64,000 bases of DNA from an uncultured virus (IMG/VR IMGVR_UViG_2030936005_000022) (taxonomy: Duplodnaviria; Heunggongvirae; Uroviricota; Caudoviricetes): positions 62,001-126,000 of IMG/VR virus record IMGVR_UViG_2030936005_000022, one strand, 5' to 3'. Below the pieces are notes generated by a model, which was not told the origin of the DNA, did not search any database, and worked only from the letters and a program-made list of their open reading frames with translations. A program made the translations under genes and the position numbers. Positions 1-64,000 of this stretch are shown piece after piece. Position 1 is the stretch's first letter. Each line of letters begins with the position of its first letter.

Positions 1-590
1 GGACACACTGTGGTAGCTGGTACGATAAAACCATTATGTTGTGTATCATCTAATGTTCCTTTAGTTAATGATGTGAAAAATGTACCATCATTATTTCCAG
101 TATCTCCGGTTTGCATGGAACCGCATACAATACCACGGTTTGAACTAATAATAGACAACGCATACTTACCTGATGGGAAATATCCCGGATGATAAACTTT
201 ATTTGTGTTTATAGAAGAAGTCAAATTTGTTGTGTTTAATACATTTGGTAGATACGAATAATAAACACCAACTGTACCACCATTCGTACCGGGACGAAGT
301 GCTACCATAGTACCGTCATCTTCTAATAGAATCTTTATTCTACGATAGCTAGCGTTTTCAGATGCACCAACGAAGTCACCTGAAACACCAGCAGGTAGGT
401 AGTTGTGTGTACCATAGTGTGATAATGGAAGAGTACTTATAATATCTTCTAACTCTGCACGAGTATAACCATCAAGTACCATATTACCATTGGCATCAAA
501 CAATGTACCGTCTATACTTTGTACTGTTCTTAGGCCAGAAGCGAACGCTTGGTGTGTAACGTTATAGCCTCCATAAATTCTTTTTGTCAT
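1..590 (-). CDS. Partial CDS running off the window start; probable late/virion protein
   Basis: Open frame from ATG at 590 (MTKRIYGGYNVTHQAFASG...), absent from the ORF track; purine-rich SD; TAAATA at 623-628; G/T/N-rich. Confidence 0.7.
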   Translation of the reverse strand, partial: MTKRIYGGYNVTHQAFASGLRTVQSIDGTLFDANGNMVLDGYTRAELEDIISTLPLSHYGTHNYLPAGVSGDFVGASENASYRRIKILLEDDGTMVALRPGTNGGTVGVYYSYLPNVLNTTNLTSSINTNKVYHPGYFPSGKYALSIISSNRGIVCGSMQTGDTGNNDGTFFTSLTKGTLDDTQHNGFIVPATTVC

Positions 591-638
591 TTTATATCCC
601 TTTAGTTAGATATCCATTATTATATTTATGTACAAAAC

Positions 639-663
639 AAAAAAGCACCCATAGGGTGCTTTT
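639..663 (-). terminator. Intrinsic terminator after nrdG
   Basis: AAAAGCACCC-ATA-GGGTGCTTTT hairpin with T-run on minus strand. Confidence 0.8.
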
Positions 664-664
664 G

Positions 665-1135
665 TTAGAAATCTGTACCTTTTCTTAGTACTCTTTGGTT
701 ATTTGAACCTCTGAAGGGTAAATTCAAATTCTTTTCCTCTTGAATGAATTTTCCATCAATCAGTACATCAATGTACTTTAAAAGTGGTAGTGCATGGTTG
801 TTCTGAACTTCCTCTAATGTATATCCGGTCCAGCACCAAATGTCTTTATCTGGGAATATTGTCTTTGCTTTAGCACAAAGTTGAAGTACTGTATCAATAT
901 TCTTTTTCATTAGTGGATCACCACCAAGTAAGGACAATCCTGAAACGTAAGACTTACTTAGTTCAATTAGAATCTGGTCTTCAGTACTGGCAGTATATTC
1001 AGAACCACTCCTGTAATCCCATGCTTTTTCATTGAAACAGCCCGGACAACCATGACTGCATCCTGAAACGAAGAGAGAGCATCGAATGCCCTCTCCATTA
1101 ACTAAATCATCTTTAATGATAGTTTCGTAATTCAT
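665..1135 (-). CDS. nrdG: Anaerobic ribonucleotide reductase activase (radical SAM)
   Basis: NGEGIRCSLFVSGC, CxxxCxxC (CSHGCPGC), LGGDPL, DVLIDGKF, FRGSNNQR; adjacent to nrdD. Confidence 0.97.
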   Translation of the reverse strand: MNYETIIKDDLVNGEGIRCSLFVSGCSHGCPGCFNEKAWDYRSGSEYTASTEDQILIELSKSYVSGLSLLGGDPLMKKNIDTVLQLCAKAKTIFPDKDIWCWTGYTLEEVQNNHALPLLKYIDVLIDGKFIQEEKNLNLPFRGSNNQRVLRKGTDF

Positions 1136-1142
1136 TTATACC

Positions 1143-2951
1143 TCAATTAGTATGTTTTGTACGTTCAGTACATTCTTGTTGTTTACCTTTATTAAAGCCT
1201 CTTGATGATGGATTTCCCAAATACCCTGATACTCTACGGATAACTGACATTGTTTTGTCATTTCTGTTATTACAACTTGGACAATGGAATCCATCACGAT
1301 CAACAGCAAACTCACCCTCAAAGGAACATGCATAGCACTTGTCAACTGGTTGGTTAATACCAAAGTACGGCACTCTGAAATAAGCATAGTCAACCAACGC
1401 TTCTAGTGCTTTTAGGTTGTTTTTAAGGTTAGGTGTCTCAACGTAACTAATGTTACCTCCGTTGCTCAAGTAAGCAAAATCTTCTTCGTAGTTCCACTTC
1501 TCGAATGGTGTACTCTCAACCCATACTGGTTGGTGGAATGAGTTGGTAATGTAGTCGCGTTTGAGTACTGAAGGGAATTTACCCTCAATTGCACGTGCAA
1601 ACTTGTAACAAAGGCTCTCTGCTGGTGTACCGTAAAGACTGAAAGCTAAACGGCTTTGTGTTGAGAAGTCTTTACATTTTGTCTTCATGTAACTTAGAAT
1701 AGAAGTACAGAAGGTTTTGTCAATGTTTCCTTTAAGAATCTCACTGCACTCTGCTAAACCGACATACCCAATGCTAATACTAGCATATCCATCATAGAAT
1801 AGCTGTTCGATTGTATCCTCTGGATCTAACCTTGCAAGTACTCCTTCGGTGAATAGGATTGGGTTTTGTTTTGCTTTCATACTCTTTAAACGCTCTACAC
1901 GGTTCATCTGAGCACGATACGCCATTTGCATATGTTGGTCTATCTTAGTATAGAAATCGCCGTCAGAGGCCGATTCAAGGGCTAATAATGGAAGATTAAT
2001 GCTTACAACGCCAAGGTTGAAACGTCCATTGTATTGTTCAACTTCTTCTTTGTTTTCCCAACGACTAAGGAAGGAACGACAGCCCATAGGTGTAACTGCT
2101 TCTGAAGTACTACCAGTTACTTTACGGTTCAAAGGTACGGAAACGAAGTCTGGGTAGATGCGTTTAGCTGCACATTGAAGGGCTTTCTGTTTTAAATCAT
2201 AATTCACATCAGTACTGTTCATGTTCGTTCCTTGCTCTAGGAAGAACACAACTTTAGGAAACACTGGTGTGCTTCCATCAATCCCTAAACCATTTTCGTG
2301 CACATCAAGATATGCCTCGGTAATCATTCTACCGAACTTTGTAGTACTCAAACCTAGGCTTAATGTAACAAATGGTGTTTGACCGTTGCTTGATGTTATT
2401 GTGTTCACTTGATATAGAAGTGCTTGCATTGCATCATAGACTTCTTTACGTAATGAGTACTCAACGTATTCATCGCTGAGGTTAAATTCTTTTTGTAGTT
2501 TTAGTAGTTTTTGATACGATTTCTCTACATATGGCTCTAAACCGCGATCAATGTGCGGTAGAGACTGTCCACCGTATTGACTAGCTGAAACAGCTAAAAC
2601 GATTTGTGTTAGTACTGTACTTGCTACACCAATACTATTTGGCGAACCTACTTGTGCGTTTCCTATTTTGAAACCACGTTTAAGCATGTCCTCATAATTA
2701 ACTAAACAACAGTTAGTAAGAGGGCTAATGTAGTAATCTAAGTCATGAATGTGACCATATCCATCTTTATGCCATTGCATTAAATCATCAGCAACAACAT
2801 CCTCCGCGTAGTGTTTGGAAAGGATACCTGCAAGTAAATCACGATGCGTGTTAACTATCTTGGCATCTTTATTTGCATTCTCATTTAGTAGATCTTGATT
2901 ACTTTGGTTCAAGAAATTGGTTACATCATTGTATAAATTATCATTTTTCAT
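1143..2951 (-). CDS. nrdD: Class III ribonucleoside-triphosphate reductase, no N-terminal ATP cone
   Basis: NENANKD, HIHDLD, TNCCL, QYGGQS, MGCRSFL, GRFNLGVVSINLP, TPAESLC, Zn-binding CxxC...CxxC, glycyl-radical motif RRVSGYL. Confidence 0.98.
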   Translation of the reverse strand: MKNDNLYNDVTNFLNQSNQDLLNENANKDAKIVNTHRDLLAGILSKHYAEDVVADDLMQWHKDGYGHIHDLDYYISPLTNCCLVNYEDMLKRGFKIGNAQVGSPNSIGVASTVLTQIVLAVSASQYGGQSLPHIDRGLEPYVEKSYQKLLKLQKEFNLSDEYVEYSLRKEVYDAMQALLYQVNTITSSNGQTPFVTLSLGLSTTKFGRMITEAYLDVHENGLGIDGSTPVFPKVVFFLEQGTNMNSTDVNYDLKQKALQCAAKRIYPDFVSVPLNRKVTGSTSEAVTPMGCRSFLSRWENKEEVEQYNGRFNLGVVSINLPLLALESASDGDFYTKIDQHMQMAYRAQMNRVERLKSMKAKQNPILFTEGVLARLDPEDTIEQLFYDGYASISIGYVGLAECSEILKGNIDKTFCTSILSYMKTKCKDFSTQSRLAFSLYGTPAESLCYKFARAIEGKFPSVLKRDYITNSFHQPVWVESTPFEKWNYEEDFAYLSNGGNISYVETPNLKNNLKALEALVDYAYFRVPYFGINQPVDKCYACSFEGEFAVDRDGFHCPSCNNRNDKTMSVIRRVSGYLGNPSSRGFNKGKQQECTERTKHTN

Positions 2952-3000
2952 TTAGACTCTCCGTGTCATATGGGTGAAATTATTTAGATAGTACCATTTT

Positions 3001-3029
3001 ATTATATCACATATAACCCGGTATGTCCC
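3001..3029 (-). promoter_or_regulatory. Promoter GGGACA-N17-TATAAT with extended -10, upstream of nrdD
   Basis: Minus strand GGGACA-TACCGGGTTATATGTGA-TATAAT; same architecture at four other sites. Confidence 0.8.
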
Positions 3030-3043
3030 TTGATCTGGATCAA
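3030..3043. promoter_or_regulatory. FNR binding site
   Basis: TTGAT-CTGG-ATCAA is an exact match to TTGAT-N4-ATCAA and abuts the -35 of the nrdD promoter. Confidence 0.75.
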
Positions 3044-3077
3044 GGAAATGGCACATTGATGCTTAAGTGAACAAACG

Positions 3078-3102
3078 AAAAAAAGCACCCTAGGGTGCTT
3101 TT
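3078..3102 (-). terminator. Intrinsic terminator, near-identical to 639-663
   Basis: AAAAGCACCC-TA-GGGTGCTTTT. Confidence 0.8.
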
Positions 3103-3103
3103 A

Positions 3104-3547
3104 TTACCACATTTGACAGTGTGGATGGTCATAAATTTCATCAAAGAAGTCAATAGTGTTGAGGAATTCCAATGCTGATTCTTTACTTTCGAACCGCATA
3201 AATTGATCACCATCATCACAACCTATGAACCATACACAGTACTTATGAGTACTAAAACGTTCTAGGAACTCATCTCGGTAGTATTCATGTTGAAGTGCTT
3301 GTTCTTCCCGCATACCTTTGTAAGTTGGTTTTTCATACCAACATTCCAAATCGGTCATTACCGTTTCATTGTACTCACCAAACACTGGTGATACACGTTC
3401 ACAAACTGGATTTAGAGCACTGTTAGCAACAGTATAATATCCGTGTTGGTCTGGGTCATCAACTAAAAGATATCCTAAAAAGTCTCTAGTACCCATCTTT
3501 TTATAGTATGGCTCAACCTGAATACTATTACTTTCTTGTAATAACAT
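3104..3547 (-). CDS. Hypothetical protein
   Basis: 147 aa, coupled to upstream ORF. Confidence 0.75.
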   Translation of the reverse strand: MLLQESNSIQVEPYYKKMGTRDFLGYLLVDDPDQHGYYTVANSALNPVCERVSPVFGEYNETVMTDLECWYEKPTYKGMREEQALQHEYYRDEFLERFSTHKYCVWFIGCDDGDQFMRFESKESALEFLNTIDFFDEIYDHPHCQMW

Positions 3548-3729
3548 TACTCGTCCTCAAATGGTGACCATTGGATAGTTACAATGAACTGACCTTCTTG
3601 GATACCATTTTCATCTTGTGGGATGTCAGCAACGAACTCATTGAAGCGTGAATCAAATGCTTCCACTACGTCACGTTGTACATCGTAGATGCTCTCACCA
3701 TCGTATTCTTTACTAAAGATTGTCTTCAT
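3547..3729 (-). CDS. Small acidic hypothetical protein
   Basis: 60 aa, stop/start overlaps on both sides. Confidence 0.7.
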   Translation of the reverse strand: MKTIFSKEYDGESIYDVQRDVVEAFDSRFNEFVADIPQDENGIQEGQFIVTIQWSPFEDE

Positions 3730-4283
3730 TTACGCACCTCGAATTTAAACATACTACCAAGGATTTCTAGAATCTTCTCTGGCATTTCTTCATGAGTGAA
3801 ACGAGTCATATCAAAGTAGTCAACATCTAGTTCGTGTAGCTTGTTCATAAAGATACGATCAAGATGTTTGGCTTCTTCTAGTGATTGAGTACGACCATAT
3901 TGGTCATATTGTGGTTTACGTGGTAGCAAGAACACTAGATTATCATCGTATTCATTGAAAAGATCAATTGATAGTTGAGTACTAAGATTCTTTGAATCCT
4001 TATAGAATTCATTATATACAACACCATTGAGTAATGAAGCATCACTAATAATGAAATCTACTTTACCTTGTAGGCGACGTAGACGGTGGTTCTGTTGTGC
4101 AGTAATTAGGATCTGATCGTGCATTGCACCTTTGTTTTCATCATACACATAGTCCTTAATGACTTCTGTAACGATTTCAACTTTCTGGTCAGATTTTAGT
4201 TTCATAGCTGCGAATAGTCCAGCGGCTGTAGTACTTTTACCACAGCATGGTCCACCTACTAGGTTAACAATTTTGGTTATCAT
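3726..4283 (-). CDS. NadR/AAA_28-like P-loop kinase/ATPase
   Basis: Walker A GGPCCGKSTT, IISDASL, YDQYGRTQ. Confidence 0.75.
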   Translation of the reverse strand: MITKIVNLVGGPCCGKSTTAAGLFAAMKLKSDQKVEIVTEVIKDYVYDENKGAMHDQILITAQQNHRLRRLQGKVDFIISDASLLNGVVYNEFYKDSKNLSTQLSIDLFNEYDDNLVFLLPRKPQYDQYGRTQSLEEAKHLDRIFMNKLHELDVDYFDMTRFTHEEMPEKILEILGSMFKFEVRK

Positions 4284-4644: not shown

Positions 4645-4646
4645 AA

Positions 4647-6143: not shown

Positions 6144-6153
6144 AAATGCTCTC

Positions 6154-7148: not shown

Positions 7149-7170
7149 AAATTCTCCATTCAATTAAAGC

Positions 7171-7281
7171 GAAAGTACTATCGCCCTCTGTTTTGGTATC
7201 TTTGAGTAGGGATACAGAGTATTCGCTGTGCGGTACGGACTTATACTGGATTTTGCCAGAGGCACGGCTTATAGTACTTTC
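7171..7281. other. Intergenic multibranch structured element
   Basis: 11-bp terminal inverted repeat GAAAGTACTAT/ATAGTACTTTC enclosing two hairpin arms. Confidence 0.6.
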
Positions 7282-7288
7282 TTATTTG

Positions 7289-7630: not shown

Positions 7631-7632
7631 AA

Positions 7633-8318: not shown

Positions 8319-8378
8319 AATTAACTCCAGTTGATTTGATAGGGGAATTATATCAAGACACAAATCCCCTGTCAACCA

Positions 8379-22901: not shown

Positions 22902-22930
22902 ATTATATCACATGATTTTTGGTTTGTCCC
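22902..22930 (-). promoter_or_regulatory. Promoter GGGACA-N17-TATAAT driving the NAD salvage operon
   Basis: TTGGGACA-AACCAAAAATCATGTGA-TATAAT. Confidence 0.85.
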
Positions 22931-23006
22931 AAGTTTTTATGGGCGTTTATCCGTGATATGTCGTCTATTATACGGTTTTTCTTGGGTATGTCAACGTTTT
23001 TTTTGG

Positions 23007-23012
23007 TAAATA
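23007..23012 (+). promoter_or_regulatory. Putative T4-like late promoter core TAAATA
   Basis: GGTAAATA upstream of three Ig-like genes (also 24278-24283 and 27605-27610). Confidence 0.55.
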
Positions 23013-23050
23013 ATGTAAAGTACTTTTATAATTTTACAGGAGATATTCAA

Positions 23051-24226
23051 ATGAAGCCTATTGCTAAATTTGGAGAGTTACCATTTTACGTGGATGGTAT
23101 CTGTGTTTTTGCTGCAACAGACGGGCAAGCACAAGCTATTACTGATGAACTCTTTATCATTGGTGAGCGTTCTACACGCATTTTTGATCTAGTTAACCAT
23201 GATACTAGTGAAATTTATAAATTTAAGCAAATGGTTAGTAGGGGGAAGGACTTAGTTGAGTTGCCATTATCAGCAACTGCAACCGAAGTTCAGCAAGCAC
23301 TTGGTAAAAATCAATTTGCGGTTAAAGTATATGATATTGTTAGTGGTGATGTTCTAGGATATGCTTACAAGTTTTTTACCCACAAATTTGTACTATCTAA
23401 TGGCCTAGAAGTTCCTGTTGTTGATTTCAACAAACAAACAACACAACCAGTTCCAATTGTTCCAGTTACTGGTGTTATTGTTACCCCAAAAACAATCTCA
23501 GCACTATTACCAAACAGTGTTTCTGGAACACTTATTGTTGATGTTCAACCTAGTGATGCAACCAATAAAAATGTAACATACTCTAGTTCTGATGAAACTA
23601 TTGCAACTGTTACAAGTTCTGGCTTTGTTACCGCCTTGAAAAACGGTAATGTAGACATTACGGTAACTACAGTAGATGGTGGTTTTACTGCTGTTTGTGA
23701 GATTGATGTTAAAACTGAAGTCCAGTCTATTTCTATTACAAACGCAAGTACGCCATTCCAACCGGGTCAAACCCAGCAATTGAATGCTACAATTTTACCA
23801 GTTGGAGCAGAATATAATGCCAGTGTTGATTGGATTTCTTCAAATGATGCAGTTGCAACAGTTTCAAGTACTGGTTTAGTAACTTACGTTTCTAACGGGG
23901 ATGCAACAATTACGGTATCCGCTAGTAATGGTGCTGAACCTAAAACCGCAACTTACACTGCTTTAACAAGAACAAGACTACAAGGGATTGAATTCAATCA
24001 CACAACATTCACAGGCGTAGTTGGTGGAACTGATCGTTTGATCACCATTTATACACCATCTACAGCAAGCAATCAGAATATCACATGGGCAACCAGTGAT
24101 TCAAGTGTTGCAACTGTTAGTTTTGGTGTAGTTTCATTCACTGGCATGGGAACCGTTGAAGTTACTGCAACCTCCCAAGAAGGCAATTTTGTCGCTACAT
24201 GTGTTTATACAGTTGTTAGTGCATAA
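23051..24226 (+). CDS. Ig-like (Big_2) domain virion protein 1
   Basis: Start MKPIAK after AGGAG; three repeats like V.P.DATNK.V.(Y/W)SSS...ATV...G.VT...G...ITVT. Confidence 0.88.
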   Translation: MKPIAKFGELPFYVDGICVFAATDGQAQAITDELFIIGERSTRIFDLVNHDTSEIYKFKQMVSRGKDLVELPLSATATEVQQALGKNQFAVKVYDIVSGDVLGYAYKFFTHKFVLSNGLEVPVVDFNKQTTQPVPIVPVTGVIVTPKTISALLPNSVSGTLIVDVQPSDATNKNVTYSSSDETIATVTSSGFVTALKNGNVDITVTTVDGGFTAVCEIDVKTEVQSISITNASTPFQPGQTQQLNATILPVGAEYNASVDWISSNDAVATVSSTGLVTYVSNGDATITVSASNGAEPKTATYTALTRTRLQGIEFNHTTFTGVVGGTDRLITIYTPSTASNQNITWATSDSSVATVSFGVVSFTGMGTVEVTATSQEGNFVATCVYTVVSA

Positions 24227-24240
24227 TTCTTTTTATATCC

Positions 24241-24265
24241 AAAGCACTGCTATGCAGTGCTTTTT
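24241..24265 (+). terminator. Intrinsic terminator
   Basis: AAAGCACTGC-TAT-GCAGTGCTTTTT. Confidence 0.85.
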
Positions 24266-24285
24266 AATTTAGGTGGGTAAATACA

Positions 24286-24328
24286 CTATATAACTTAATA
24301 AGGAGTTAATATGGGAAAACCAATAGCA
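24286..24328 (+). repeat. 43-bp exact direct repeat (copy at 27613-27655) covering leader, SD and first codons
   Basis: CTATATAACTTAATAAGGAGTTAATATGGGAAAACCAATAGCA. Confidence 0.9.
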
Positions 24329-25639
24329 AAAGCTGGTAATTCTCCATTTACAACTGGTGGATATTGTGTAACAGCCGCCAAGATAAATGGTGTAACATAT
24401 ACTAACCTAAACATATACCAACAACGTTCTGACATGGTTTTTGACCTAATTGATACGTCTGGTAACATTTATACATTCATTTCATTGGTGTATAACAATT
24501 CAGAGTCACAAACTCTAAATCCATCATTAAGTACTGAAGTACTTGTCAATTCAATTTCTGACAATTGTTTCTTTATTAAAGCAACAAATAGTCTAACCAC
24601 AAACACATCATTTGTGATTAGTTTTCAAAGTAATAAATTAAAACTAGCGAATGGTGAAATGCTTTATCGCCCGTTTGATTTATTCTACTGTAATATCCCA
24701 ACCCCTGAACCTTTTATTCTTCCTGATATGTCTAGAAGCTATTTTTCAGGTGGTGATGTGGTTGTACCCGCAACTGGTGAAGATTTCGGTACAGCAGATT
24801 TATTCCTAGTAGGTACTGACGGAAAAAACATCACAAACTATGATGTTAGTAAAATAAAAATGTCATTAGTGAATGATGACGGAACTTCATCATTATCTGA
24901 AGTTATTTCAAATGGAAATGGGGTTTATTATGCCAAAGTGTATTCTACGGTAATCCAACCTGTATATTTTGTTTGTTCAGTTAATGGTGAAACACCAAAT
25001 ATGACACGAAATTTTGTTCAATTTATATCACCACAACGTGCAACCGTAAGGACGAATAGTGCTGTTAATTATGGTACTGCTAGCACCGTGGTTGTTAATA
25101 CTGAATTTATAATAAATGATCCAGCCAACCAATCAGTATGGGATAATTCAGCTACGTGGACGTCACCAACTCCGGGCGTAACAATATTAGGAAATACATA
25201 TGGATCAACTTGTTATTTGATAGCTAACACCACCGATGATGTGGTACTACACTATCAATCAAATTGGCAGAAATCTTTGAATGCAACTGGTACAGTTAAG
25301 GTTGAACCCAATTTCATTTTAACATCACCTGATGGTACAGTGGATACATTTAAAATTATACCTGACTCAACTTTCGATGTTAAGTTTTCATATAACCCAG
25401 TTGACCTCAGTACTTCTGAGCCGGGTAATATTGTAATTTTGACAACAGCTTTAAATGGTGTAATAGATTCAGTTGAATATCTCGGATCTATGACTTATAG
25501 ATTTAAATCCAAAAGTGCTGATGAATTTGATTCATTTTCAAACTCTGGTATTGGTGATTTGACTCTTTCCAACTTCACATCACGTGCAAAAATTAAATTT
25601 AATATATCAGATAAATCTGGTAACTTCGAGGACAATTAA
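24311..25639 (+). CDS. Virion protein paralog 2 with Ig/invasin-like beta domains
   Basis: Shared MGKPIA...AAKING...YQQRS N-domain; NGNGVYYA invasin-like segment. Confidence 0.75.
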   Translation: MGKPIAKAGNSPFTTGGYCVTAAKINGVTYTNLNIYQQRSDMVFDLIDTSGNIYTFISLVYNNSESQTLNPSLSTEVLVNSISDNCFFIKATNSLTTNTSFVISFQSNKLKLANGEMLYRPFDLFYCNIPTPEPFILPDMSRSYFSGGDVVVPATGEDFGTADLFLVGTDGKNITNYDVSKIKMSLVNDDGTSSLSEVISNGNGVYYAKVYSTVIQPVYFVCSVNGETPNMTRNFVQFISPQRATVRTNSAVNYGTASTVVVNTEFIINDPANQSVWDNSATWTSPTPGVTILGNTYGSTCYLIANTTDDVVLHYQSNWQKSLNATGTVKVEPNFILTSPDGTVDTFKIIPDSTFDVKFSYNPVDLSTSEPGNIVILTTALNGVIDSVEYLGSMTYRFKSKSADEFDSFSNSGIGDLTLSNFTSRAKIKFNISDKSGNFEDN

Positions 25640-25640
25640 T

Positions 25641-27560
25641 ATGGGAAAACCAATAGCAGGCCAAGACCAATTCCCTTACAATACTAATGGGTTTTTAGTA
25701 GATGCGGCAAAAATTAATGGTGTAACATTTTCTAAATCACTGTACATATACAAACAACGTTCTGATACATACTATGATTTACAGGATACATCAGGTACAA
25801 TTTATCAGTTTGTTAAAATCGTTGGAACTGACCAAGATAAAAAACCACTTCAGTACTTTGATACATCCGAAGACATAGCTTTGAAATTGGAAAACAACAC
25901 ATTTTGTATGAAAATACAAGATCCAACTAGAGGTATATTTTCGTTTGTTAGACTTTACCAATGGCATAAATGTATAACATTCGATGGTGATTATATTTTC
26001 AGGAAAGGTGGATTAGATCCAACATTAAGTGGTGTTTATATAAATCCAGTGGTTGCGACAATATCTAAAGGTTCCACTCAATCATTCGTAGCTACTTTTT
26101 TCCCTGATGAATACTTGAACACTGATGGTAATTGGTATTTGAACATAAATGGTTCGGAAAAGACAATAAACACTTTAATTAAACAAACTGATAAAAATAA
26201 AATTGTGGTTGAGGGAATAGATGTTGGTAAATCAATTTTATCATTTATACCATCTGGAAACAATTCTAAAATTTCAAGTTCAATAATCAATGTTATTGAT
26301 GCAGATACGCCAGTTCAAAGTTTTTTTGGTAGAGGAACAACAGACTTGCCATTTTCAACCACGCGTGCGTTATATGGTGAGGAATTTGATATTGTTATTG
26401 AAACCTATCCATATGATGCAGTGTTGACTGAAGCACTCGATTTTGATATTAACATGAACGATGGATTAAGTATTGATGAAATAACTTTAGTGAAAGTATC
26501 GGATGATTTTAGAACCTATACCTTTAAATCAAAATATATATATGATATCGATCCAGTTGGGATTTCATACAATCCTAGAATTACTTTTAAAATGAAAAAT
26601 CCAATTGATTTTGAATTTATGGTTTATTCAATTTATATATATAATGAAATGCGAGAAATTTATGTCAAGGAAAACGAAGAACTTGGCGTTAGGTATGAAG
26701 TTCTTTCAAATTTAAGACCAAATTCGCAATACCAAGCAATAAAACAATACATGTATTATGGTATACAATATAACCCATATATCTCATCTGACCCATCAAT
26801 TGCAACATTGGATCATGAGACTGGTTTAATAACGACATACGATAAAACTGGCGAAGTTTCATTCTCAACCACATATGTTAGAGATAATGGGGAAGTTGTT
26901 AATTATGATAATATATTAAGCTTTTCTGTAATACCGGATGTTTATGATTATATAACAATCGATCCACCAAATATCACATCAGTTCCTATTAATTCAACAA
27001 CCCAGTTTAAAATATACGGCGTGATTGGGGATATTAAAACTGAATTGAAAATTAAAGAAGTCAGTGATTCCAATTACAAAATAACATCGGATGGTATATT
27101 AACTACTTATAACAAGGCTGGTGCTTATGCAACCGTTCAAGTTGATGATTTGTTTGAATTGTCATCTAATGTAATGACACCATATCAAACATTTGGAGCT
27201 TTCCCATTAATCGTTGAAGATGATAAATCAAAATATCAAATTACCGATCTATCATCATCTTGGGTATACCAAAATAATACTGTGTTTGTCAATCTAGATG
27301 GATATACCGCAGGGTTAATTCCAAATTTCACAATAAACCCATACCCAGAAGTATGTGTGGATTATGAATTGGAAATAATTTCATATGATGAATCTATAAT
27401 TGAAATTTTAGATAAAGAACGAATCTCGGAAAATCAATGTTTTATGGCTGGTCAAATGATTGTTTACTTCAATCCCGTATCACGTGGAAGTACTTTAGTT
27501 GTTGTTGGAAGTGTTTCTAATCCAGACATTAAAATTGAAGTTAAAGTTGTAGTTTACTAA
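25641..27560 (+). CDS. Virion protein paralog 3 with Ig-like domains
   Basis: True start MGKPIAG at 25641 (GAGGA SD); SSDPSIATLD..TGLITT. Confidence 0.8.
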   Translation: MGKPIAGQDQFPYNTNGFLVDAAKINGVTFSKSLYIYKQRSDTYYDLQDTSGTIYQFVKIVGTDQDKKPLQYFDTSEDIALKLENNTFCMKIQDPTRGIFSFVRLYQWHKCITFDGDYIFRKGGLDPTLSGVYINPVVATISKGSTQSFVATFFPDEYLNTDGNWYLNINGSEKTINTLIKQTDKNKIVVEGIDVGKSILSFIPSGNNSKISSSIINVIDADTPVQSFFGRGTTDLPFSTTRALYGEEFDIVIETYPYDAVLTEALDFDINMNDGLSIDEITLVKVSDDFRTYTFKSKYIYDIDPVGISYNPRITFKMKNPIDFEFMVYSIYIYNEMREIYVKENEELGVRYEVLSNLRPNSQYQAIKQYMYYGIQYNPYISSDPSIATLDHETGLITTYDKTGEVSFSTTYVRDNGEVVNYDNILSFSVIPDVYDYITIDPPNITSVPINSTTQFKIYGVIGDIKTELKIKEVSDSNYKITSDGILTTYNKAGAYATVQVDDLFELSSNVMTPYQTFGAFPLIVEDDKSKYQITDLSSSWVYQNNTVFVNLDGYTAGLIPNFTINPYPEVCVDYELEIISYDESIIEILDKERISENQCFMAGQMIVYFNPVSRGSTLVVVGSVSNPDIKIEVKVVVY

Positions 27561-27564
27561 CAAT

Positions 27565-27593
27565 AAAAAAGGAACCCATTGGGTTCCTTTTTT
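27565..27593 (+). terminator. Intrinsic terminator
   Basis: AAAAAAGGAACCC-ATT-GGGTTCCTTTTTT. Confidence 0.85.
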
Positions 27594-27637
27594 CATTTAT
27601 GTGGTAAATAATCTATATAACTTAATAAGGAGTTAAT

Positions 27638-29458
27638 ATGGGAAAACCAATAGCAGGAAAGGATCAATATCCTTTCCAAATCAATGGCATTATTGTAGAT
27701 GGTGCTAAAATAAATGGACAAACTTTTGTAAAAGGTCTATACATTTATAAACAACGTTCATATAACTATTATGATTTAATTGATTCTGATGGAAATGTAT
27801 ATGAATTCATCGAAATTACTTGGAGAAAAGAAGATACCACCGTTCTTAATTACTTCGATAACTCAGATTATATTGTTGAAAGCATAAAAGATAATTCATT
27901 TTTTATAAAGATTCAAGATATACCAAGAAACATTTATGGTTTTATTACATTAATACAATCAAACAAAGTTAAAGTTAGTACGGGTGATTATATTTTCTAT
28001 AATGACGAAGATGACTACGCTTTGTTGTCTGTTAGATGTATCCCAGCAACAATTCAAGCAAAGAAAAACCAGCTTGTTTCTATTGATGTTTCATTCCTTC
28101 CATTGGATTTTTCAAATCAAAATGGTAGATGGGATATGGAAACTTCAAATATAGCGGAAGTTGGTAGATCTAATACCAGTACTGGTATATTTAGATGTTT
28201 AGATGTTGGTCATGCACGAGTTACTTTTAACCCTGAAGCAAATACTAAACTAGCTGCAACTGCACAGATTTTCATTACTGAGAATGAACCAACATATACT
28301 TCATTTAGATTTATGCAAAACGTTCCAAATGGAAAATCATTGTCAAATGATAATACATTTTTCCCTGGGGATGAAGTTACATTCACTGCGATTTTTGAAC
28401 CGTTTGGTTTTGTCCCAAGTCACGAATTTGATGTAATATATGATGAAACCGTTTTTGAATATCTTGGTTCGGATGATTTTATTAATTACAAATTTAAAGT
28501 ACTAGATGATACTACCTTTAGTGGTGTAAGAACACGAGTAGAATTGCGTGATGGTAACATGTATGCATTTGATCAACCAATAATCAGGTTACCAACAACA
28601 TCAATATATACTGGCGTAGAAGGTCCATATTTTGTTCGTAGTGGCGAATCATATCAATATGATATGGCATATTATAGCAAGCCAGTAGATCCTTCTTTTA
28701 CTTGGGGTGTACAAAATTCAAGCTTAGGGACTATTACATCTGATGGTGTGTATTCCCCGGTCGGAACTGGTGACAACCGTGTTTATCAAAACACAAACGG
28801 TGGGATGAACTTGAACTACAAAAATGTAAAATGTTCTCCTTATGTACCAGATCGCTATGTATATTCACCAAGTGACCGTTCTGTATATTTTGTCGGAGAG
28901 GAAATCCAACTAACGGCAGCTACCATTCCTAGTTCAGTTTCATTGATAGGTGGAAAGTGGAGAAGTAGAAATAACAATGATTATGAATATTTCTCAGTAA
29001 GTACTTCAGGTGTATTGAAAATTTTAAAAGCACCAGACCAACCAACCAAACAATTTTATGTTGGATTTGCATACAATGGTTCAAGTAATGGTGGCGGTAC
29101 AGTTACGGATACAGTTGAAGCATTGGAAAAAACATTCATGATAATGGATGTAGATTCAAATGTTCCAATCCAGAGTATTAGAATTTATAATTACGCGGGG
29201 GTAGTTAACGTACCACTAGGTGGTAAAACCTCTACACAGGTAACAGTTTCACCAGTTAATAGTACTGGTAATAAAGGGTGGACTTATGAAATGTCAGTTG
29301 CTGGTATTGTATCAATTGAGTACATTCAAGAGTATAATAACAACTTCTACTTTACACCAGTTATAATTAATGGTTTATCTCGTGGTCAAACTGATATCAC
29401 ATTCACGTGTGTGCAGAATCCTGAAATAAAAGTTATACAAACCATAACTGTTTATTAA
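27638..29458 (+). CDS. Virion protein paralog 4 with Ig-like domains
   Basis: MGKPIAG N-domain; several Big_2-like repeats. Confidence 0.8.
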   Translation: MGKPIAGKDQYPFQINGIIVDGAKINGQTFVKGLYIYKQRSYNYYDLIDSDGNVYEFIEITWRKEDTTVLNYFDNSDYIVESIKDNSFFIKIQDIPRNIYGFITLIQSNKVKVSTGDYIFYNDEDDYALLSVRCIPATIQAKKNQLVSIDVSFLPLDFSNQNGRWDMETSNIAEVGRSNTSTGIFRCLDVGHARVTFNPEANTKLAATAQIFITENEPTYTSFRFMQNVPNGKSLSNDNTFFPGDEVTFTAIFEPFGFVPSHEFDVIYDETVFEYLGSDDFINYKFKVLDDTTFSGVRTRVELRDGNMYAFDQPIIRLPTTSIYTGVEGPYFVRSGESYQYDMAYYSKPVDPSFTWGVQNSSLGTITSDGVYSPVGTGDNRVYQNTNGGMNLNYKNVKCSPYVPDRYVYSPSDRSVYFVGEEIQLTAATIPSSVSLIGGKWRSRNNNDYEYFSVSTSGVLKILKAPDQPTKQFYVGFAYNGSSNGGGTVTDTVEALEKTFMIMDVDSNVPIQSIRIYNYAGVVNVPLGGKTSTQVTVSPVNSTGNKGWTYEMSVAGIVSIEYIQEYNNNFYFTPVIINGLSRGQTDITFTCVQNPEIKVIQTITVY

Positions 29459-41663: not shown

Positions 41664-41685
41664 AAACGGGGAGAGTACTCTCCCC
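41664..41685 (-). terminator. Hairpin/terminator, perfect 18-bp palindrome centred on AGTACT
   Basis: GGGGAGAGTACTCTCCCC. Confidence 0.65.
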
Positions 41686-54629: not shown

Positions 54630-55167
54630 TCATTTCCTCATATGCGATTGAACGCCACAGAACATATCATATTTTAAGTACTCATCATCTCCGGGTAAAC
54701 ATATCTTGAATGTACCGAAGTCATTGTTCAGTACTGACTGACGCATTAAGGTACTACTGTATATGCATCCAGTTCTGTCTGAACCTGCGAGTACTGTCTT
54801 GATGGAGTTAAAATTATAGTTCACTCCGTTATATTTGTCAAGTGTTTTTTGAAATGAATCAGTTCTATCACTTCCACCCACAAATACAATTTCTTCGTAC
54901 TCACCGTTTAGGCCATCCATGATATCAAACAAGTTTTTTGACATTTTCATCTTGGATTGTGTTAGCAATTTCTGGGAAGAACTTTGAAATATAGAACTGA
55001 CGAAGTTCTCTTGGAAGTGGATTTCTTTCTGTATCTATTGTTGAACTCAAGAAGAGTTTAACATCGGTAGAAGCATTCTGCAAAGATAATGCTTGTTCGA
55101 ATACTTTACCGTGACCTAAGTGTACGGGATTCATTCTCCCGTACATAAACACACAAGTTTTAGACAT
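54630..55167 (-). CDS. HxGH nucleotidyltransferase (cytidyltransferase-like) split by an extra A in an A6 run (54934-54939)
   Basis: YGRMNPVHLGH, RNPL, VGGSDR, SSTLMR. Confidence 0.8.
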
Positions 55168-55687
55168 TTTTCATTACCAAACCTAAAGTTTTTAAGTACT
55201 GAACCTTTGCATCTGTTAAATTCCTATCAAGTACAATAATACAACTAGGGAAAGGTGCAGGGTTCTCCTTTTTAGTTACATCTCTATCAGGGTCAAAGAA
55301 CTTCAATCTTCCCTTAATAAAGCATATACAAGAACATTCTTTGGCTGCATAAAGTTGGAATGCTTTAGTATCAGTTCTAGAAGGAACTAGTATAACAACT
55401 GTGGCTCCCCTTTGATATGCATCAACTGCTTTGGTAAGCCATGTCTTAAGATCATCGTAAGGTGGGTTAAGCCAAACGATTTCAGTACCCCAATCCTGTA
55501 TTAGACTATTGTCTCCAGGAGTGTAGTACTTTTTACATAATGCACTATTGGGTAAACACGCTGCATCTAGTGTAAACTTCCAATGTGCATCTATGTCGCG
55601 AAATAACTCTCTTGGAGTATTCCATGTTTGAGATTCAGAAGAGTAATGTATACTCATATCTCTCTTTGCATTTCCTTTGCTACTCAT
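55160..55687 (-). CDS. Phage DNA N6-adenine methyltransferase; specificity unknown
   Basis: WNTP, FTLDAA, WLNPPY, LVPSRTDT, GRLKF, APFPS. Confidence 0.88.
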   Translation of the reverse strand: MSSKGNAKRDMSIHYSSESQTWNTPRELFRDIDAHWKFTLDAACLPNSALCKKYYTPGDNSLIQDWGTEIVWLNPPYDDLKTWLTKAVDAYQRGATVVILVPSRTDTKAFQLYAAKECSCICFIKGRLKFFDPDRDVTKKENPAPFPSCIIVLDRNLTDAKVQYLKTLGLVMKNV

Positions 55688-55694: not shown

Positions 55695-56228
55695 CTATTT
55701 TAGACAGAACCTCATAATGTCATCAAATTCGGCACTATTGATTCTGTATTCGTCGTGAAGTTTAAAGTGGCTTCCATACAACATAAAGATGTTAAAAACT
55801 TCATCTTCAGCAAACTTGTATGTGTTAAATGATTCGTTATCTCCTTTAAATCCAATGAAGGACTTAATATCTTCAGTTACATCAGTACTGTTACTGTAGT
55901 ATAAAACCGTTTTTAACTCACCACTTATTGTATATTTCCTGTACTCACCTTGAACTCTGTTGTTATGGTCAGTATAATATACAGTATTGATATTCCCATT
56001 GTTATAGCGTTCCTCGCTATAACCACCATATTTCACAGAAAAAATGACAGGTTGTTGTGTAGGTCTAAAACTAATCTTTCCTACTTGCTTTCCTTCGTTG
56101 AACTCAATAATATTACTGAGTTTATTGAAGTCCTTTGTAATTTTATATCCAGTAAAGTAATTCGGTACTTCGTTGTCATTGGGCTTGATAACTGTACCAT
56201 CTTTCTGTTTATATGTTACTTCATTCAT
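55695..56228 (-). CDS. Hypothetical protein with MORN-variant-like repeats and a divergent FQ-like motif
   Basis: YNNGNI...QGEYRKY..SGEL; EDEVFNIFMLYG. Confidence 0.65.
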   Translation of the reverse strand: MNEVTYKQKDGTVIKPNDNEVPNYFTGYKITKDFNKLSNIIEFNEGKQVGKISFRPTQQPVIFSVKYGGYSEERYNNGNINTVYYTDHNNRVQGEYRKYTISGELKTVLYYSNSTDVTEDIKSFIGFKGDNESFNTYKFAEDEVFNIFMLYGSHFKLHDEYRINSAEFDDIMRFCLK

Positions 56229-56252
56229 TGTCTGTGCTTCTCTTTTTGTTAT

Positions 56253-56355
56253 GTACAATCAACGAATCATTTCACTTCGTTCTATGATTCAGAGAAAGAA
56301 TAATTCAAATACTCACTAGCGTTCGTATTTTAATATTCTTTTCATTGGATTGTAC
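56253..56355 (-). other. Y-shaped element with twin GA-AC-G(N/NN)A-GT-GA hairpins
   Basis: Closing stem GTACAATC/GATTGTAC; arms 56264-56290 and 56294-56343. Confidence 0.6.
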
Positions 56356-56359
56356 TTTA

Positions 56360-56899: not shown

Positions 56900-56901
56900 A
56901 T

Positions 56902-56930
56902 ATTATATCACATTTTTGTCACTTTGTCTC
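56902..56930 (-). promoter_or_regulatory. Promoter GAGACA-N17-TATAAT
   Basis: GAGACA-AAGTGACAAAAATGTGA-TATAAT; no ORF downstream for about 640 bp. Confidence 0.75.
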
Positions 56931-60778: not shown

Positions 60779-60793
60779 AGTACCCCACAAATG

Positions 60794-60943: not shown

Positions 60944-60945
60944 GT

Positions 60946-62394: not shown

Positions 62395-62824
62395 AAATTC
62401 CTCTGCACATGGATAACGTTTTAATCATTGTATCATAGTCGAACTTGACTTGCAACCCCCAACCACCCACACAATTTTGAGTGAAGAAAACACCCTCCAT
62501 CTCGTCAAGTGTGAACGCTTCATCAAACAAATTAGTCTGATATAATTCGGTCTTTGGATTGTATACCATCAAGAATTCAGTACTGTAACGTATTACTAAT
62601 TTCTTTGGACTAATCATAATCCTGCATAAATCTTGCAAGTACTCAGTGCGAATATGTAAGTTAATGTGATTCTTATGACCAGCACAACGAACATCCATCG
62701 CGTATCCATCACCGATAACAAAACCATTTCTGGGGGTAAATTCTTTACCCGCACTCATTGACAGGCAATCCTGTACAATATAATTGATTGTATCCAAGTT
62801 GTCAAGTATATCTACTTTACGCAT
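62363..62824 (-). CDS. FQ-motif family protein (divergent)
   Basis: EGVFFTQNCVG; start MRKVDI after AGGAG. Confidence 0.7.
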   Translation of the reverse strand: MRKVDILDNLDTINYIVQDCLSMSAGKEFTPRNGFVIGDGYAMDVRCAGHKNHINLHIRTEYLQDLCRIMISPKKLVIRYSTEFLMVYNPKTELYQTNLFDEAFTLDEMEGVFFTQNCVGGWGLQVKFDYDTMIKTLSMCRGIYDSFIFANQK

Positions 62825-62834
62825 ATCTTCTCCT

Positions 62835-63404
62835 TTAAATCCCAACCTTATGTATCAATGTACGACGAATTTTACGAACATACTGAGTCTTAAATGAAAA
62901 CGGGATATAAAGATGATAACCCTCTAATTCCGGGCAAGGTGCTGTAAGAATCTCTTCATAGGCTCTTTTAATTATATTGTACTCTGGTAGTTCTGGGTGG
63001 ATCAACGATAACTGAAAATGCTCATCTTCAGTACATAACCCTTCCTTAAAGAATGTGTCAACATAATCATCAGTATCCAATAAATCTGAATTTTCAGAAT
63101 TAACAAAAGAATAACCAAAAAATTCATCATCTTTGTTGTAGGCAACACTGCAACCTGTATTACAAAATAATGAAATGCCAGTATCTTTGGATAAATGGAA
63201 TACATGTTCGGAACCGTAACCATCAATGTATGTTCTTATATATATTTTATCTTTATCAGTCCATACAAATTCTAGTTCATTACCATCGTCCATGCGAGTG
63301 TTTTGTTGATAACTATAAGCTACTTTTTGTTTCCTGAAATTCAAACAACGAATAGCTAGATCTCTACATAACTCGAAATGCTCTTTAAGTTCTTCATAGT
63401 TCAT
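62835..63404 (-). CDS. FQ-motif family hypothetical protein
   Basis: EDEHFQLSLIHP. Confidence 0.75.
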   Translation of the reverse strand: MNYEELKEHFELCRDLAIRCLNFRKQKVAYSYQQNTRMDDGNELEFVWTDKDKIYIRTYIDGYGSEHVFHLSKDTGISLFCNTGCSVAYNKDDEFFGYSFVNSENSDLLDTDDYVDTFFKEGLCTEDEHFQLSLIHPELPEYNIIKRAYEEILTAPCPELEGYHLYIPFSFKTQYVRKIRRTLIHKVGI

Positions 63405-63407
63405 TGG

Positions 63408-63959
63408 TTAAAATTCCTCAAAGTACAAACAAATGTCATCATAGATAGTGTTAAGAAGTTCAGTACTAACTTCTGGACAAAGATCCATATAGAAACACAT
63501 ACCTTTCATTTCAGTACAATCCATAGTTAGTGCTTCCATATAACGTGGAAGGTCTTCGTACTTCAATACCATATCATCACGAATAAGTGATTGTTGAAAG
63601 TACTCTTCCTCGCTGATATTAATTACACCACCATCTAGCTTAGAATCCAAGTACTCATCTTCGTGATCATTCCCACTATCAAAGAATGTATACTCTTCAT
63701 TACGTTCATCACCTTCCATGAAGTTACGGCCCCATCCACGATGTGTACGGAGATTGATAATATACAAGTGCTCATGATTTCCAATTTCGCAAATCTCGTA
63801 ACGTTCTTCGTGATCATCCATATCAAATGATACACGAACTAATGCATGTTCGTCTGCGTACTTAAACCCATACACCCTGCATAAGTATTGTGGCATGTAC
63901 TTTTCATAAGAGAATACTTTTGGTTTATTCTTATTAAGCAAAGCACCCAATTCTAGCAT
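63408..63959 (-). CDS. FQ-motif family hypothetical protein
   Basis: EEEYFQQSLIRD. Confidence 0.75.
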   Translation of the reverse strand: MLELGALLNKNKPKVFSYEKYMPQYLCRVYGFKYADEHALVRVSFDMDDHEERYEICEIGNHEHLYIINLRTHRGWGRNFMEGDERNEEYTFFDSGNDHEDEYLDSKLDGGVINISEEEYFQQSLIRDDMVLKYEDLPRYMEALTMDCTEMKGMCFYMDLCPEVSTELLNTIYDDICLYFEEF

Positions 63960-64000
63960 AAGTTTGTAACGATAGATATCTTCATCTACTTTGTCTTTAA

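What the first reader, a model, noticed from the sequence alone, without database searches (positions are those of the whole stretch)
1..64000. AGTACT behaves as a highly iterated palindrome, with an orphan adenine methyltransferase in the window
Seen: by eye I counted about 31 AGTACT sites in 1-10000. Independent bases at about 35% GC would give about 3-4. Sites occur in all three codon phases (Ser-Thr; Lys/Glu/Gln-Tyr; Val-Leu), in intergenic DNA, at the centre of a hairpin (41668-41685) and in the arms of the 7171-7281 element. One-off variants TGTACT/AGTACA are also common. Density drops to about 11 in the 6.5-kb Ig-gene block, with none seen in about 25900-27480. Knowledge: phages usually avoid 6-bp palindromes (AGTACT is the ScaI site); cyanobacterial HIP1 is an iterated palindrome linked to methyltransferases. 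Inference: the motif is actively generated or kept, for example as a methyl self-mark (candidate writer 55160-55687), a packaging or nucleoid-protein site, or a repair/recombination signal. Lower density could mark recently acquired DNA.
Basis: partly seen in the sequence, partly recalled or inferred. Interest (0 to 1): 0.82.

Follow-up and report, generated by a model that had tools for sequence, protein, structure and literature searches.

The report
Iterated AGTACT palindrome in jumbo phage
A giant phage and its enterobacterial relatives carry the six-letter palindrome AGTACT about nine times more often than chance, kept there by selection, but the methylase gene in the window is probably not what reads it.

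Summary
AGTACT occurs 191 times in the window against 20.8 expected. It is the commonest hexamer. It is the top outlier of 4096 hexamers after synonymous-codon shuffling (359 vs 100, z=30).

The window is a Rak2-like jumbo phage. All nine complete enterobacterial relatives counted have 850-1313 sites against 134-200 for the reversed word. PA5oct, Atu_ph07 and T4 have fewer than the control. E. coli K-12 is about 35 times poorer.

Selection acts on the DNA: synonymous codons inside sites are conserved 227/282 against 177 expected. Sites still turn over, and density does not depend on gene age.

The word is a strict hexamer with about 0.5 bit of dyad-symmetric flank. In GAP32 and Munch it is 2.5-3 times denser in the early region and sits beside the -35 and -10 boxes of early promoters.

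The PF05869 methylase is the only methylase family of four found in all five relatives tested. The only characterised relative I read about methylates GATC, and the closest non-jumbo homologues sit in AGTACT-poor phages.

The scan has noted this motif before in other genomes.

The parts
1..64000 (.). 191 copies of AGTACT (2.98 per kb), spread through coding DNA in all three phases and through intergenic DNA
   Evidence: The contig-wide spacing is close to Poisson (CV 0.95). There is no peak at any fixed distance from start codons.
55160..55687 (-).
   Evidence: Pfam E 2e-30. TIGR01712 88.8 bits, below the 97.05 cut-off. NPPY motif invariant in the alignment. Syntenic homologues are annotated in Munch, 121Q, GAP32 and pEa_SNUABM_47 and found in RaK2 and Hallingskeid.
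41668..41685 (-). 18-bp perfect palindrome, a G+C-rich intergenic hairpin with the motif at its centre
   Evidence: Sequence read. It lies between ORFs 41692-41913 and 41079-41651.
7171..7281 (-). Conserved intergenic structured element whose 11-bp closing stem carries AGTACT in both arms
   Evidence: RNA fold -31.6 kcal/mol, z = -3.58. 84.6% identical in Munch. Three pairs are kept through changes on both sides (two sequences only).
22919..29458 (+). Block of four plus-strand genes, the first with three Big_2 Ig-like domains, with lower motif density (11 sites)
   Evidence: 11 against 20.5 expected, P = 0.017. Plus-strand genes in the contig have 2.03 sites/kb against 2.86 for minus-strand genes.
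55695..56258 (-). Conserved neighbour gene of the methylase, tested as a possible nuclease partner
   Evidence: Ten homologues, none with a Pfam domain. Model pLDDT 91.3. No PDB fold match at E <= 0.001; the best rows are beta-sheet repeat domains and none of those listed is a nuclease.

Best explanation
AGTACT is a selection-maintained, highly iterated palindrome shared by the enterobacterial Rak2-like jumbo phages. I think it is most likely a genome-wide recognition word on duplex DNA. A symmetric phage-encoded factor, not the Dam-like methylase, would bind it non-covalently with a precision like that of restriction-modification enzymes.

Individual sites are interchangeable and density is what is kept. 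The word therefore works as a tag that sets phage DNA apart from host DNA, which is about 35 times poorer in it. In the early region of relatives the same word sits beside the -35 and -10 boxes of sigma-70-type promoters, where the same factor could switch early transcription.

Shown: the enrichment, its spread across the clade, selection at the DNA level, turnover of sites, the strict hexamer, the dyad-symmetric flanks, and the placement at promoters. Inferred: that a protein binds the word, what that protein is, and what binding achieves.
For: - Enrichment survives codon-preserving shuffles, z = 30, top of 4096 hexamers.
- All nine complete enterobacterial relatives counted have 850-1313 sites against 134-200 for the reversed word. 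PA5oct 15/40, Atu_ph07 25/82 and T4 29/51 are not enriched.
- Site positions are conserved 62/114 against 28% for all hexamers (Munch), 17/39 against 17% (121Q) and 17/42 against 17% (GAP32).
- Synonymous codons inside sites are kept 227/282 against 177.3 expected (P 1e-10), and 89/118 against 65.7 for GAP32.
- Only 27 of 197 site positions are shared by all three phages, yet density stays 2.4-2.8 per kb.
- Density is equal in core, clade-limited and orphan genes.
- The raw flank logo is symmetric on a one-strand-biased genome (T at -4/-3, A at +3/+4, G avoided at -1). It recurs in Munch and GAP32.
- Inner one-off variants have O/E 0.6-1.5.
- E. coli K-12 has 400 sites in 4.64 Mb.
- GAP32 and Munch have 6-7 sites/kb in the first 20-30 kb against about 2 elsewhere. 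In GAP32 1-24.9 kb the non-coding DNA has 9.6/kb, with sites clustered about 39-45 and 60-67 bases before start codons.
- The strict double-site pattern AGTACT-TG..-N-AGTACT-N-(T/C)A(T/A)AAT matches 6 places in GAP32 and 3 in Munch.
Against: - No binding protein is identified.
- Pfam found no classical repressor or nucleoid-protein domain among the 109 window ORFs.
- Among 143 Munch ORFs conserved in GAP32 and without a hit in PA5oct, only weak leads appeared: a T5orf172/GIY-YIG-like 102-aa protein, an HNH protein with an HTH_7 domain, type IIA topoisomerase subunits, and a sigma-70-family protein.
- A strict 6-bp word with 0.5 bit of flank is more typical of methylases and nucleases than of regulators, which keeps the methyl-mark rival alive.
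- Intergenic density in this contig is lower than coding density (1.5 against 2.76 per kb).
- The contig holds no early-type double-site promoter, so the promoter link rests on two relatives.
- The loss rate on this lineage is only modestly below background (16/43 against 3280/6998). No accelerated gain was seen (0/57, small sample).
Confidence: 0.4

Rival explanations
1. Methyl self-mark. The PF05869 methylase, or another modifying enzyme, writes on AGTACT or its GTAC core. The dense modified sites protect or label phage DNA, and methylation state could time early promoters.
For: - PF05869 is the only one of four methylase families present in all five relatives tested. PF01555 is in 2 of 5, PF00145 in 3 of 5 and PF02086 in 0 of 5. 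Munch has none of these three.
- A homologue is absent from the non-enriched PA5oct, Atu_ph07 and T4.
- The word has the strictness of an enzyme site.
- The enzyme is divergent: below the equivalog cut-off, with a clade-specific loop insertion and a C-terminal extension.
- A genome that lacks 25 of 64 palindromic hexamers yet carries 191 ScaI-type sites suggests that these sites are not exposed.
- RaK2 DNA is reported as methylated, data not shown (PMC3622015, passages).
Against: - M.Phi93DAM methylates GATC by SMRT sequencing and DpnI/DpnII digestion (PMC4190342, passages). It lies between the two terminase genes, as does the homologous gene of Lactococcus phage 10W24. I did not check the identity between those two proteins.
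- From recall only, T1, HP1 and VT2 Dam are also GATC enzymes.
- The 41-47% identical homologues lie in phages with 4 AGTACT (control 4) and 0 AGTACT (control 12).
- The loop that differs from GATC enzymes also differs in length within the AGTACT clade.
- The presence/absence contrast is a single phylogenetic event.
- Iyer et al. suggest that a small Dam family of this phage subgroup may act on RNA (PMC7824862, passage). I did not confirm that their example is this family.
- Methylation alone gives no reason for enrichment.
Confidence: 0.22
2. Site of action of a phage DNA enzyme, such as the type IIA topoisomerase, a nicking or cutting enzyme that starts recombination-dependent replication, or a primase. 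Many sites on both strands would be useful for such an enzyme.
For: - The word is dyad-symmetric with weak A/T-phased flanks out to about 9 bp, as type IIA topoisomerase sites are (recalled).
- GyrB-like and ParC-like subunits, three HNH proteins and a T5orf172/GIY-YIG-like protein are conserved in Munch and GAP32 and gave no tblastn hit in PA5oct.
- Density rather than position is kept.
Against: - T4 has its own topoisomerase II (recalled) but no enrichment (29 against 51).
- Topoisomerase consensus sequences are loose (recalled), whereas this hexamer is strict.
- No data on cleavage or nicking exist.
- This reading does not explain the fixed promoter positions.
Confidence: 0.12
3. A host factor reads it. 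The nucleoid-occlusion protein SlmA has AGTACT at the core of its site, so phage DNA could block cell division.
For: - The SlmA site is GTGAGTACTCAC (PMC3020112, passages).
- All enriched phages infect Enterobacterales, and the Pseudomonas and Agrobacterium relatives are not enriched.
Against: - SlmA needs G and T at positions 1-2.
- 0 of 191 window sites match GTRAGTACTYAC. The one match with a single mismatch breaks the core.
- At -3 the sites prefer T, with G at 0.17. At -1 G is depleted to 0.08-0.12.
Confidence: 0.03
4. Neutral by-product of a context-specific mutation or mismatch-repair bias (Vsr-like), with no reader.
For: Directed repair could mimic both enrichment and apparent conservation. 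Density is uniform across gene classes.
Against: - No one-off variant is strongly depleted: AGTATT 0.97, AATACT 0.79, AGGACT 0.58 on 10 counts.
- No accelerated gain from conserved one-off sites: 0/57 against 1.9% background.
- Dyad-symmetric flank preferences and fixed promoter positions are not expected from repair.
Confidence: 0.06

Closest known systems
HIP1 (GCGATCGC) and other highly iterated palindromes of cyanobacteria (Elhai 2015, PMC4390886; PMC5861425; abstracts seen in the listing)
   Same: A short palindrome far above expectation, roughly once per gene, in coding and non-coking DNA alike. It is kept by selection, its function is unsettled, and orphan methylases are encoded in the same genomes.
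   Different: It is a hexamer of different sequence, in a lytic jumbo-phage clade rather than a bacterial phylum. The co-resident methylase family is known for GATC, which is not contained in AGTACT, whereas the HIP1 methylases recognise sub-words of HIP1. Spacing here is close to Poisson.
Chi, DNA uptake sequences and similar over-represented self-marking words
   Same: Many interchangeable copies. Density is what is selected. The word discriminates own DNA from other DNA (35 times against E. coli K-12).
   Different: Those words are asymmetric and strand-biased and their readers are known (recalled). This one is a perfect palindrome with symmetric flanks, and its reader is unknown.
Phage T1/HP1/VT2/Phi93 Dam group (Pfam PF05869, TIGR01712)
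   Same: The window's enzyme matches the family and keeps the NPPY motif.
   Different: It scores below the equivalog cut-off and has an inserted loop and a C-terminal extension. Its specificity is untested.
SPO1 TF1-type phage DNA-binding proteins that prefer phage DNA and sit on early promoters (recalled, not checked in a call)
   Same: The idea of a phage protein that binds its own genome at many sites, including early promoters in the terminal region.
   Different: TF1 recognises hydroxymethyluracil DNA rather than a hexamer. No HU/IHF-type domain appeared in the ORF sets scanned, but I ran no dedicated search for one.

Membership tests
Highly iterated palindromes (HIP-type) | A palindromic word far above composition- and codon-based expectation | tested here: met
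   191 against 20.8. z = 30 after codon shuffles, rank 1 of 4096.
Highly iterated palindromes (HIP-type) | Present in all reading frames and in non-coding DNA | tested here: met
   Phases 154/79/126; 11 intergenic or partial sites.
Highly iterated palindromes (HIP-type) | Sites conserved beyond background between related genomes | tested here: met
   54% against 28%. Synonymous codons 227/282 against 177 expected.
Highly iterated palindromes (HIP-type) | An orphan methylase that recognises the word or a sub-word of it | not testable with these tools
   PF05869 is present in all relatives checked, but its known relative targets GATC. No methylome data are available.
HIP1 proper | Sequence GCGATCGC in cyanobacterial genomes | tested here: not met
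   The word is AGTACT in a phage. CGATCG occurs 0 times in the window.
PF05869 / TIGR01712 phage Dam | Profile match above the curated cut-off | tested here: inconclusive
   Pfam 106 bits against 28.1, met. NCBIfam equivalog 88.8 against 97.05, not met.
PF05869 / TIGR01712 phage Dam | Catalytic (D/N)PPY motif | tested here: met
   N74 P75 P76 Y77 are invariant in 8 sequences.
PF05869 / TIGR01712 phage Dam | Methylates GATC | not testable with these tools
   Only a relative is characterised. GATC O/E is 0.65-0.82 in the contig, which settles nothing.
Type II restriction-modification pair (ScaI type) | A cognate nuclease gene beside the methylase | tested here: not met
   The neighbour 55695-56258 folds confidently (pLDDT 91.3) but has no PDB match at E <= 0.001, and none of the rows listed is a nuclease. 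The other neighbour is a nucleotidyltransferase in relatives.
SlmA-binding site | GT(R) flanks on both sides of the AGTACT core | tested here: not met
   0 exact matches among 191 sites. Flank logo.
Promoter element | Fixed distance to transcription or translation starts | tested here: inconclusive
   Not met in this contig: the profile is flat, with a dip before starts. Met for a minority of sites in the GAP32 and Munch early regions.
Cruciform or hairpin-forming repeat | Flanks complementary within each site beyond what base frequencies give | tested here: not met
   819 against 808.5, 1953 against 1908.5 and 2305 against 2270.6 complementary flank pairs.

The most novel reading that the evidence does not exclude
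AGTACT is a private identity barcode of this phage clade. A dedicated factor, or a retargeted Dam-family enzyme, reads about a thousand interchangeable copies to tell viral from host DNA. The same word beside the -35 and -10 boxes of early promoters lets that factor switch the early programme. This would be a genome-identity system for a virus that has no base hypermodification and no nucleus-like compartment.
Probability: 0.35. Interest if true: 0.85.

Novelty: new variant of a known kind. Interest (0 to 1): 0.72.

Why it matters
Phages normally purge short palindromes, and this clade does so heavily: 25 of 64 palindromic hexamers are absent from the window. Yet it loads one palindrome to about a thousand copies per genome and keeps it by selection at synonymous sites.

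This gives a testable route to how an unmodified, nucleus-less jumbo phage marks its own DNA and controls its early promoters. It is also a second, experimentally tractable example of the long-unexplained HIP phenomenon, because coliphages of this clade grow on laboratory E. coli. In practice the word is a simple diagnostic for this clade in metagenomes.

I found no paper that mentions it. Of 49 papers holding 'AGTACT' and 'phage', the two of the 20 listed that I opened used it only as the ScaI site. None of the 15 top-ranked clade papers listed holds the word. The three occurrences in the CBB supplements are in one file; the two shown lie in a terminator sequence.

Tried and rejected
- Neighbour gene as nuclease partner. 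I gathered homologues, folded it and searched PDB folds. No match reached E <= 0.001. I did not run pdb_via_wide.
- SlmA. The flanks do not fit.
- Vsr-like repair. One-off variants are not depleted.
- Promoter element in this contig. There is no positional peak, and the four AGTACTTG[AC][CA]A matches in the contig lack a second site.
- Regular spacing. CV 0.95, P = 0.18, with only a deficit of gaps under 30 bp (14 against 27.7).
- Hairpin or cruciform. No excess complementarity.
- Low density as a sign of acquired DNA. Not seen.
- An alternative iterated palindrome in PA5oct. None, and no palindrome avoidance either.
- Gain/loss rates on a three-phage alignment. The sample was too small (0/57 gains), and the script stopped with an error after printing the first branch. 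I did not re-run it.
- PDB sequence search with the methylase. Nothing below E 0.1.
- Rfam and tRNA scans of the window. 0 hits each.
- Sequencing runs. Four were listed, all kept as contigs, with no RNA holder listed. No reads were laid.
- Pfam scan for clade-specific DNA binders. It gave leads only. ORFs crossing 20-kb locus borders (4 of 147) were dropped, and homologues of window genes were left out because they had been scanned.
- Supplements of the other clade papers were not opened. The GAP32 paper was not among the papers found by the searches.
Full report
**What the window is.** The window (C1:62001-126000 of a 136,837-base viral contig) belongs to a jumbo myophage of the Rak2/121Q/GAP32 group. 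Its nearest records are Salmonella phages Munch and PHA46 and Klebsiella phage fENko-Kae01, at about 78% nucleotide identity. It encodes nucleotide and NAD metabolism, DNA and RNA ligases, Clp protease, an anti-CBASS Acb1-like protein and other counter-defence genes.

**The observation.**
- AGTACT occurs 191 times. Dinucleotide-preserving shuffles give 20.8 +/- 4.7, with a maximum of 33 in 100.
- It is the single commonest hexamer in the window and in the whole contig, which has 368 sites at 2.69 per kb.
- Markov expectations rise with order: 20.7, 41.3, 84.3 and 168 for orders 1 to 4. The order-4 model nearly absorbs the excess, because it is built from the pentamers AGTAC and GTACT, which the motif itself inflates. 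This is the one test under which AGTACT is not an outlier.
I permuted synonymous codons within each of 215 ORFs, which keeps every protein and each gene's codon usage. This gives 98.7 +/- 8.6 sites against 359 observed. All three phases are raised 3-4 times. In a second run z = 30.3, the highest of all 4096 hexamers.
- The controls ACTAGT and TGATCA are at expectation.

**How strict the word is.**
- Inner single-base variants are not enriched (O/E 0.6-1.5). Only the outer A/T swaps TGTACT and AGTACA are about 2 times up.
- The flanks add about 0.5 bit in total, but they are dyad-symmetric in the raw logo although 192 of 215 genes lie on one strand. T is favoured at -4/-3, A at +3/+4, and G is avoided at -1. 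The same logo recurs in Munch and GAP32.
- Flanks are not complementary within sites beyond what base frequencies give. The sites are therefore not hairpins.

**Distribution.**
- Spacing is close to Poisson (CV 0.95, P = 0.18), with fewer very short gaps than expected.
- Sites show no preferred distance from start codons, and they thin out in the last 100 bases before a start.
- Density is the same in genes shared with both Munch and GAP32 (2.63/kb), genes shared with Munch only (3.01/kb) and genes with no homologue in either (2.46/kb). It does not depend on protein identity. 'Low density marks recent acquisition' is therefore not supported. The Ig block has 11 sites against 20.5 expected (P = 0.017).

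**Spread across the clade.** Counts of the word against its reversed control are:

| Phage | AGTACT | Control |
|---|---|---|
| Munch | 850 | 149 |
| 121Q | 903 | 134 |
| GAP32 | 1011 | 169 |
| TH47 | 917 | 139 |
| pEa_SNUABM_47 | 1067 | 146 |
| Hallingskeid | 1313 | 200 |
| Serratia BF | 1072 | 152 |
| ELP-22 | 1060 | 151 |
| RaK2 | 937 | 142 |
| PA5oct | 15 | 40 |
| Atu_ph07 | 25 | 82 |
| T4 | 29 | 51 |

- The more distant PA5oct and Atu_ph07, and T4, have fewer sites than the control.
- PA5oct has neither another iterated palindrome nor any absent palindrome.
- E. coli K-12 has 400 sites in 4.64 Mb against 1147 for the control. The window is therefore about 35 times denser.

**Selection.**
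- AGTACT positions are conserved about twice as often as hexamers in general: 62/114 against 28% with Munch, 17/39 against 17% with 121Q, and 17/42 against 17% with GAP32.
- Where the amino acid is unchanged, the codons AGT, ACT, GTA and TAC keep their spelling more often inside sites than outside. The figures are 227/282 against 177.3 expected (P 1e-10) for Munch and 89/118 against 65.7 (P 7e-6) for GAP32.
- Sites still turn over. Of 197 aligned positions holding the word in at least one of three phages, 27 hold it in all three.
- Loss on this lineage is 16/43 against 47% for all hexamers. No gain from conserved one-off sites was seen (0/57). The sample is small, and the script stopped before the second branch.
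- The picture is one of many weakly selected, interchangeable sites with a maintained density.

**The methylase.**
- 55160-55687(-) matches Pfam PF05869 and keeps NPPY. It scores below the TIGR01712 equivalog cut-off.
- Homologues are annotated or found in Munch, 121Q, GAP32, pEa_SNUABM_47, PHA46, ELP-22, RaK2 and Hallingskeid. None was found in PA5oct, Atu_ph07 or T4.
- Other methylase families are patchy in five relatives: PF01555 in 2, PF00145 in 3 and PF02086 in 0. Munch has none of the three. If a methylase writes on AGTACT, this is the candidate.
- Against that, M.Phi93DAM of a lactococcal phage methylates GATC by SMRT sequencing and DpnI/DpnII digestion (PMC4190342, passages read). It lies between the terminase genes, where the homologous gene of phage 10W24 also lies.
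- The 41-47% identical homologues sit in phages with 0 and 4 AGTACT sites.
- The loop that distinguishes the jumbo enzymes also varies in length within the clade.
- The presence/absence pattern is one phylogenetic contrast, shared by at least 147 other Munch ORFs.
- Iyer et al. propose that a small Dam family of this subgroup may methylate RNA (PMC7824862, passage). I did not verify that it is the same family.
- The conserved neighbour gene is not a recognisable nuclease.
- I put the methylase-writer link at roughly one in five.

**A clue from relatives.**
- In Munch and GAP32 the first 20-30 kb hold 6-7 sites per kb against about 2 elsewhere and 1.3-2 in the middle of the genome. This region has small genes, annotated sigma-70-type promoters and many terminators.
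- In GAP32 1-24.9 kb the non-coding DNA has 9.6 sites/kb and coding DNA 4.3.
- Non-coding sites cluster about 39-45 bases (11 sites) and 60-67 bases (14 sites) before the next start codon. They form the pattern A-rich tract, AGTACT overlapping TTGACA/TTGCAA, about 12 bases, AGTACT, 1-2 bases, TATAAT.
- The strict double-site pattern matches 6 places in GAP32 and 3 in Munch. The -35-linked form accounts for 26 of 1011 sites in GAP32 and 22 of 850 in Munch.
- Within this contig density does not follow protein conservation. The early-region excess is therefore unlikely to be mere relaxed constraint.
- This contig holds no such region.

**Reading.**
- A strict, symmetric word on duplex DNA, kept by density-type selection, rare in the host and built into early promoters is best explained as a recognition tag read by a symmetric factor.
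- I favour a non-covalent phage-encoded binder (0.4) over the methyl mark (0.22), an enzyme action site (0.12), a mutational by-product (0.06) and host SlmA (0.03). The rest is unassigned.
- SlmA fails on its flanks. A repair bias fails on the variant spectrum.
- Candidate readers from a Pfam scan of 143 clade-restricted Munch ORFs are only leads.

**Prior knowledge.**
- No paper found by three searches mentions the enrichment. The CBB promoter and terminator tables do not point it out.
- The RaK2 paper states, data not shown, that its DNA is cut only by methylation-tolerant enzymes.
- This scan has recorded the same motif many times in related genomes (132 notes in at least 56 genomes). Two earlier notes judged the methylase to be a GATC enzyme. 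My tests agree with them.

Noticed in passing
window 1-64000; Munch and GAP32 whole genomes: Very strong palindrome avoidance. 25 of 64 palindromic hexamers are absent from the window, 22 of 64 from Munch's 350 kb and 27 of 64 from GAP32's 359 kb. PA5oct lacks none. AAGCTT occurs 2 times against 17 expected, and GGTACC and CGTACG 0 times.
   Followed up: partly
contig-wide, sense strand of ORFs: TATTTA (9 against 68.9) and TAAATA (22 against 80.5) are the most avoided hexamers inside genes. This fits avoidance of the ATAAATA late-promoter word reported for CBB and GAP32 (PMC5259590). ACCAGG and CCAGGT occur 0 times against 18-21 expected, which suggests CCWGG avoidance.
   Followed up: no
window 56259-56918: A 660-base non-coding stretch upstream of the methylase block. 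It is 88.6% identical to Munch, more than the 78% genome average. Partial extra copies exist: one more place in this contig and several in Munch and GAP32. It holds no AGTACT.
   Followed up: partly
window 7171-7281 (-): A conserved intergenic element with a stable fold (z = -3.58). Three pairs are kept through changes on both sides against Munch (two sequences only). It has no Rfam or tRNA match.
   Followed up: partly
GAP32 1-25 kb and Munch 1-20 kb (L065, L029): Early promoters carry two AGTACT copies, one overlapping the -35 box and one just upstream of the -10 box, 20-23 bases apart.
   Followed up: partly
window 14825-15582 (-): The Sir2 domain is split over two adjacent ORFs of 170 and 81 aa. 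Munch annotates a single 762-base NAD-dependent deacetylase gene there.
   Followed up: no
window 54630-55172 (-): The nucleotidyltransferase gene that follows the methylase in relatives (537 bases in Munch) is broken here by in-frame stops. Two ORFs of 111 and 79 aa are left, neither with a Pfam hit.
   Followed up: no
contig G000 about 129.8-134.8 kb (outside the window): A run of genes without AGTACT, including the largest gap in the contig (4216 bases). I did not examine what it encodes.
   Followed up: no
Munch 330-350 kb (L045, L046): Thirteen tandem paralogues of about 380-400 aa with RCC1-like beta-propeller repeats. GAP32_001 at the left end is annotated as similar to RCC1.
   Followed up: no
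contig, Munch, GAP32: GATC is moderately under-represented in the clade. O/E against order-1 and order-2 expectations is 0.82/0.65 in the contig, 0.68/0.58 in Munch and 0.76/0.65 in GAP32. In PA5oct it is 0.93/0.94.
   Followed up: no
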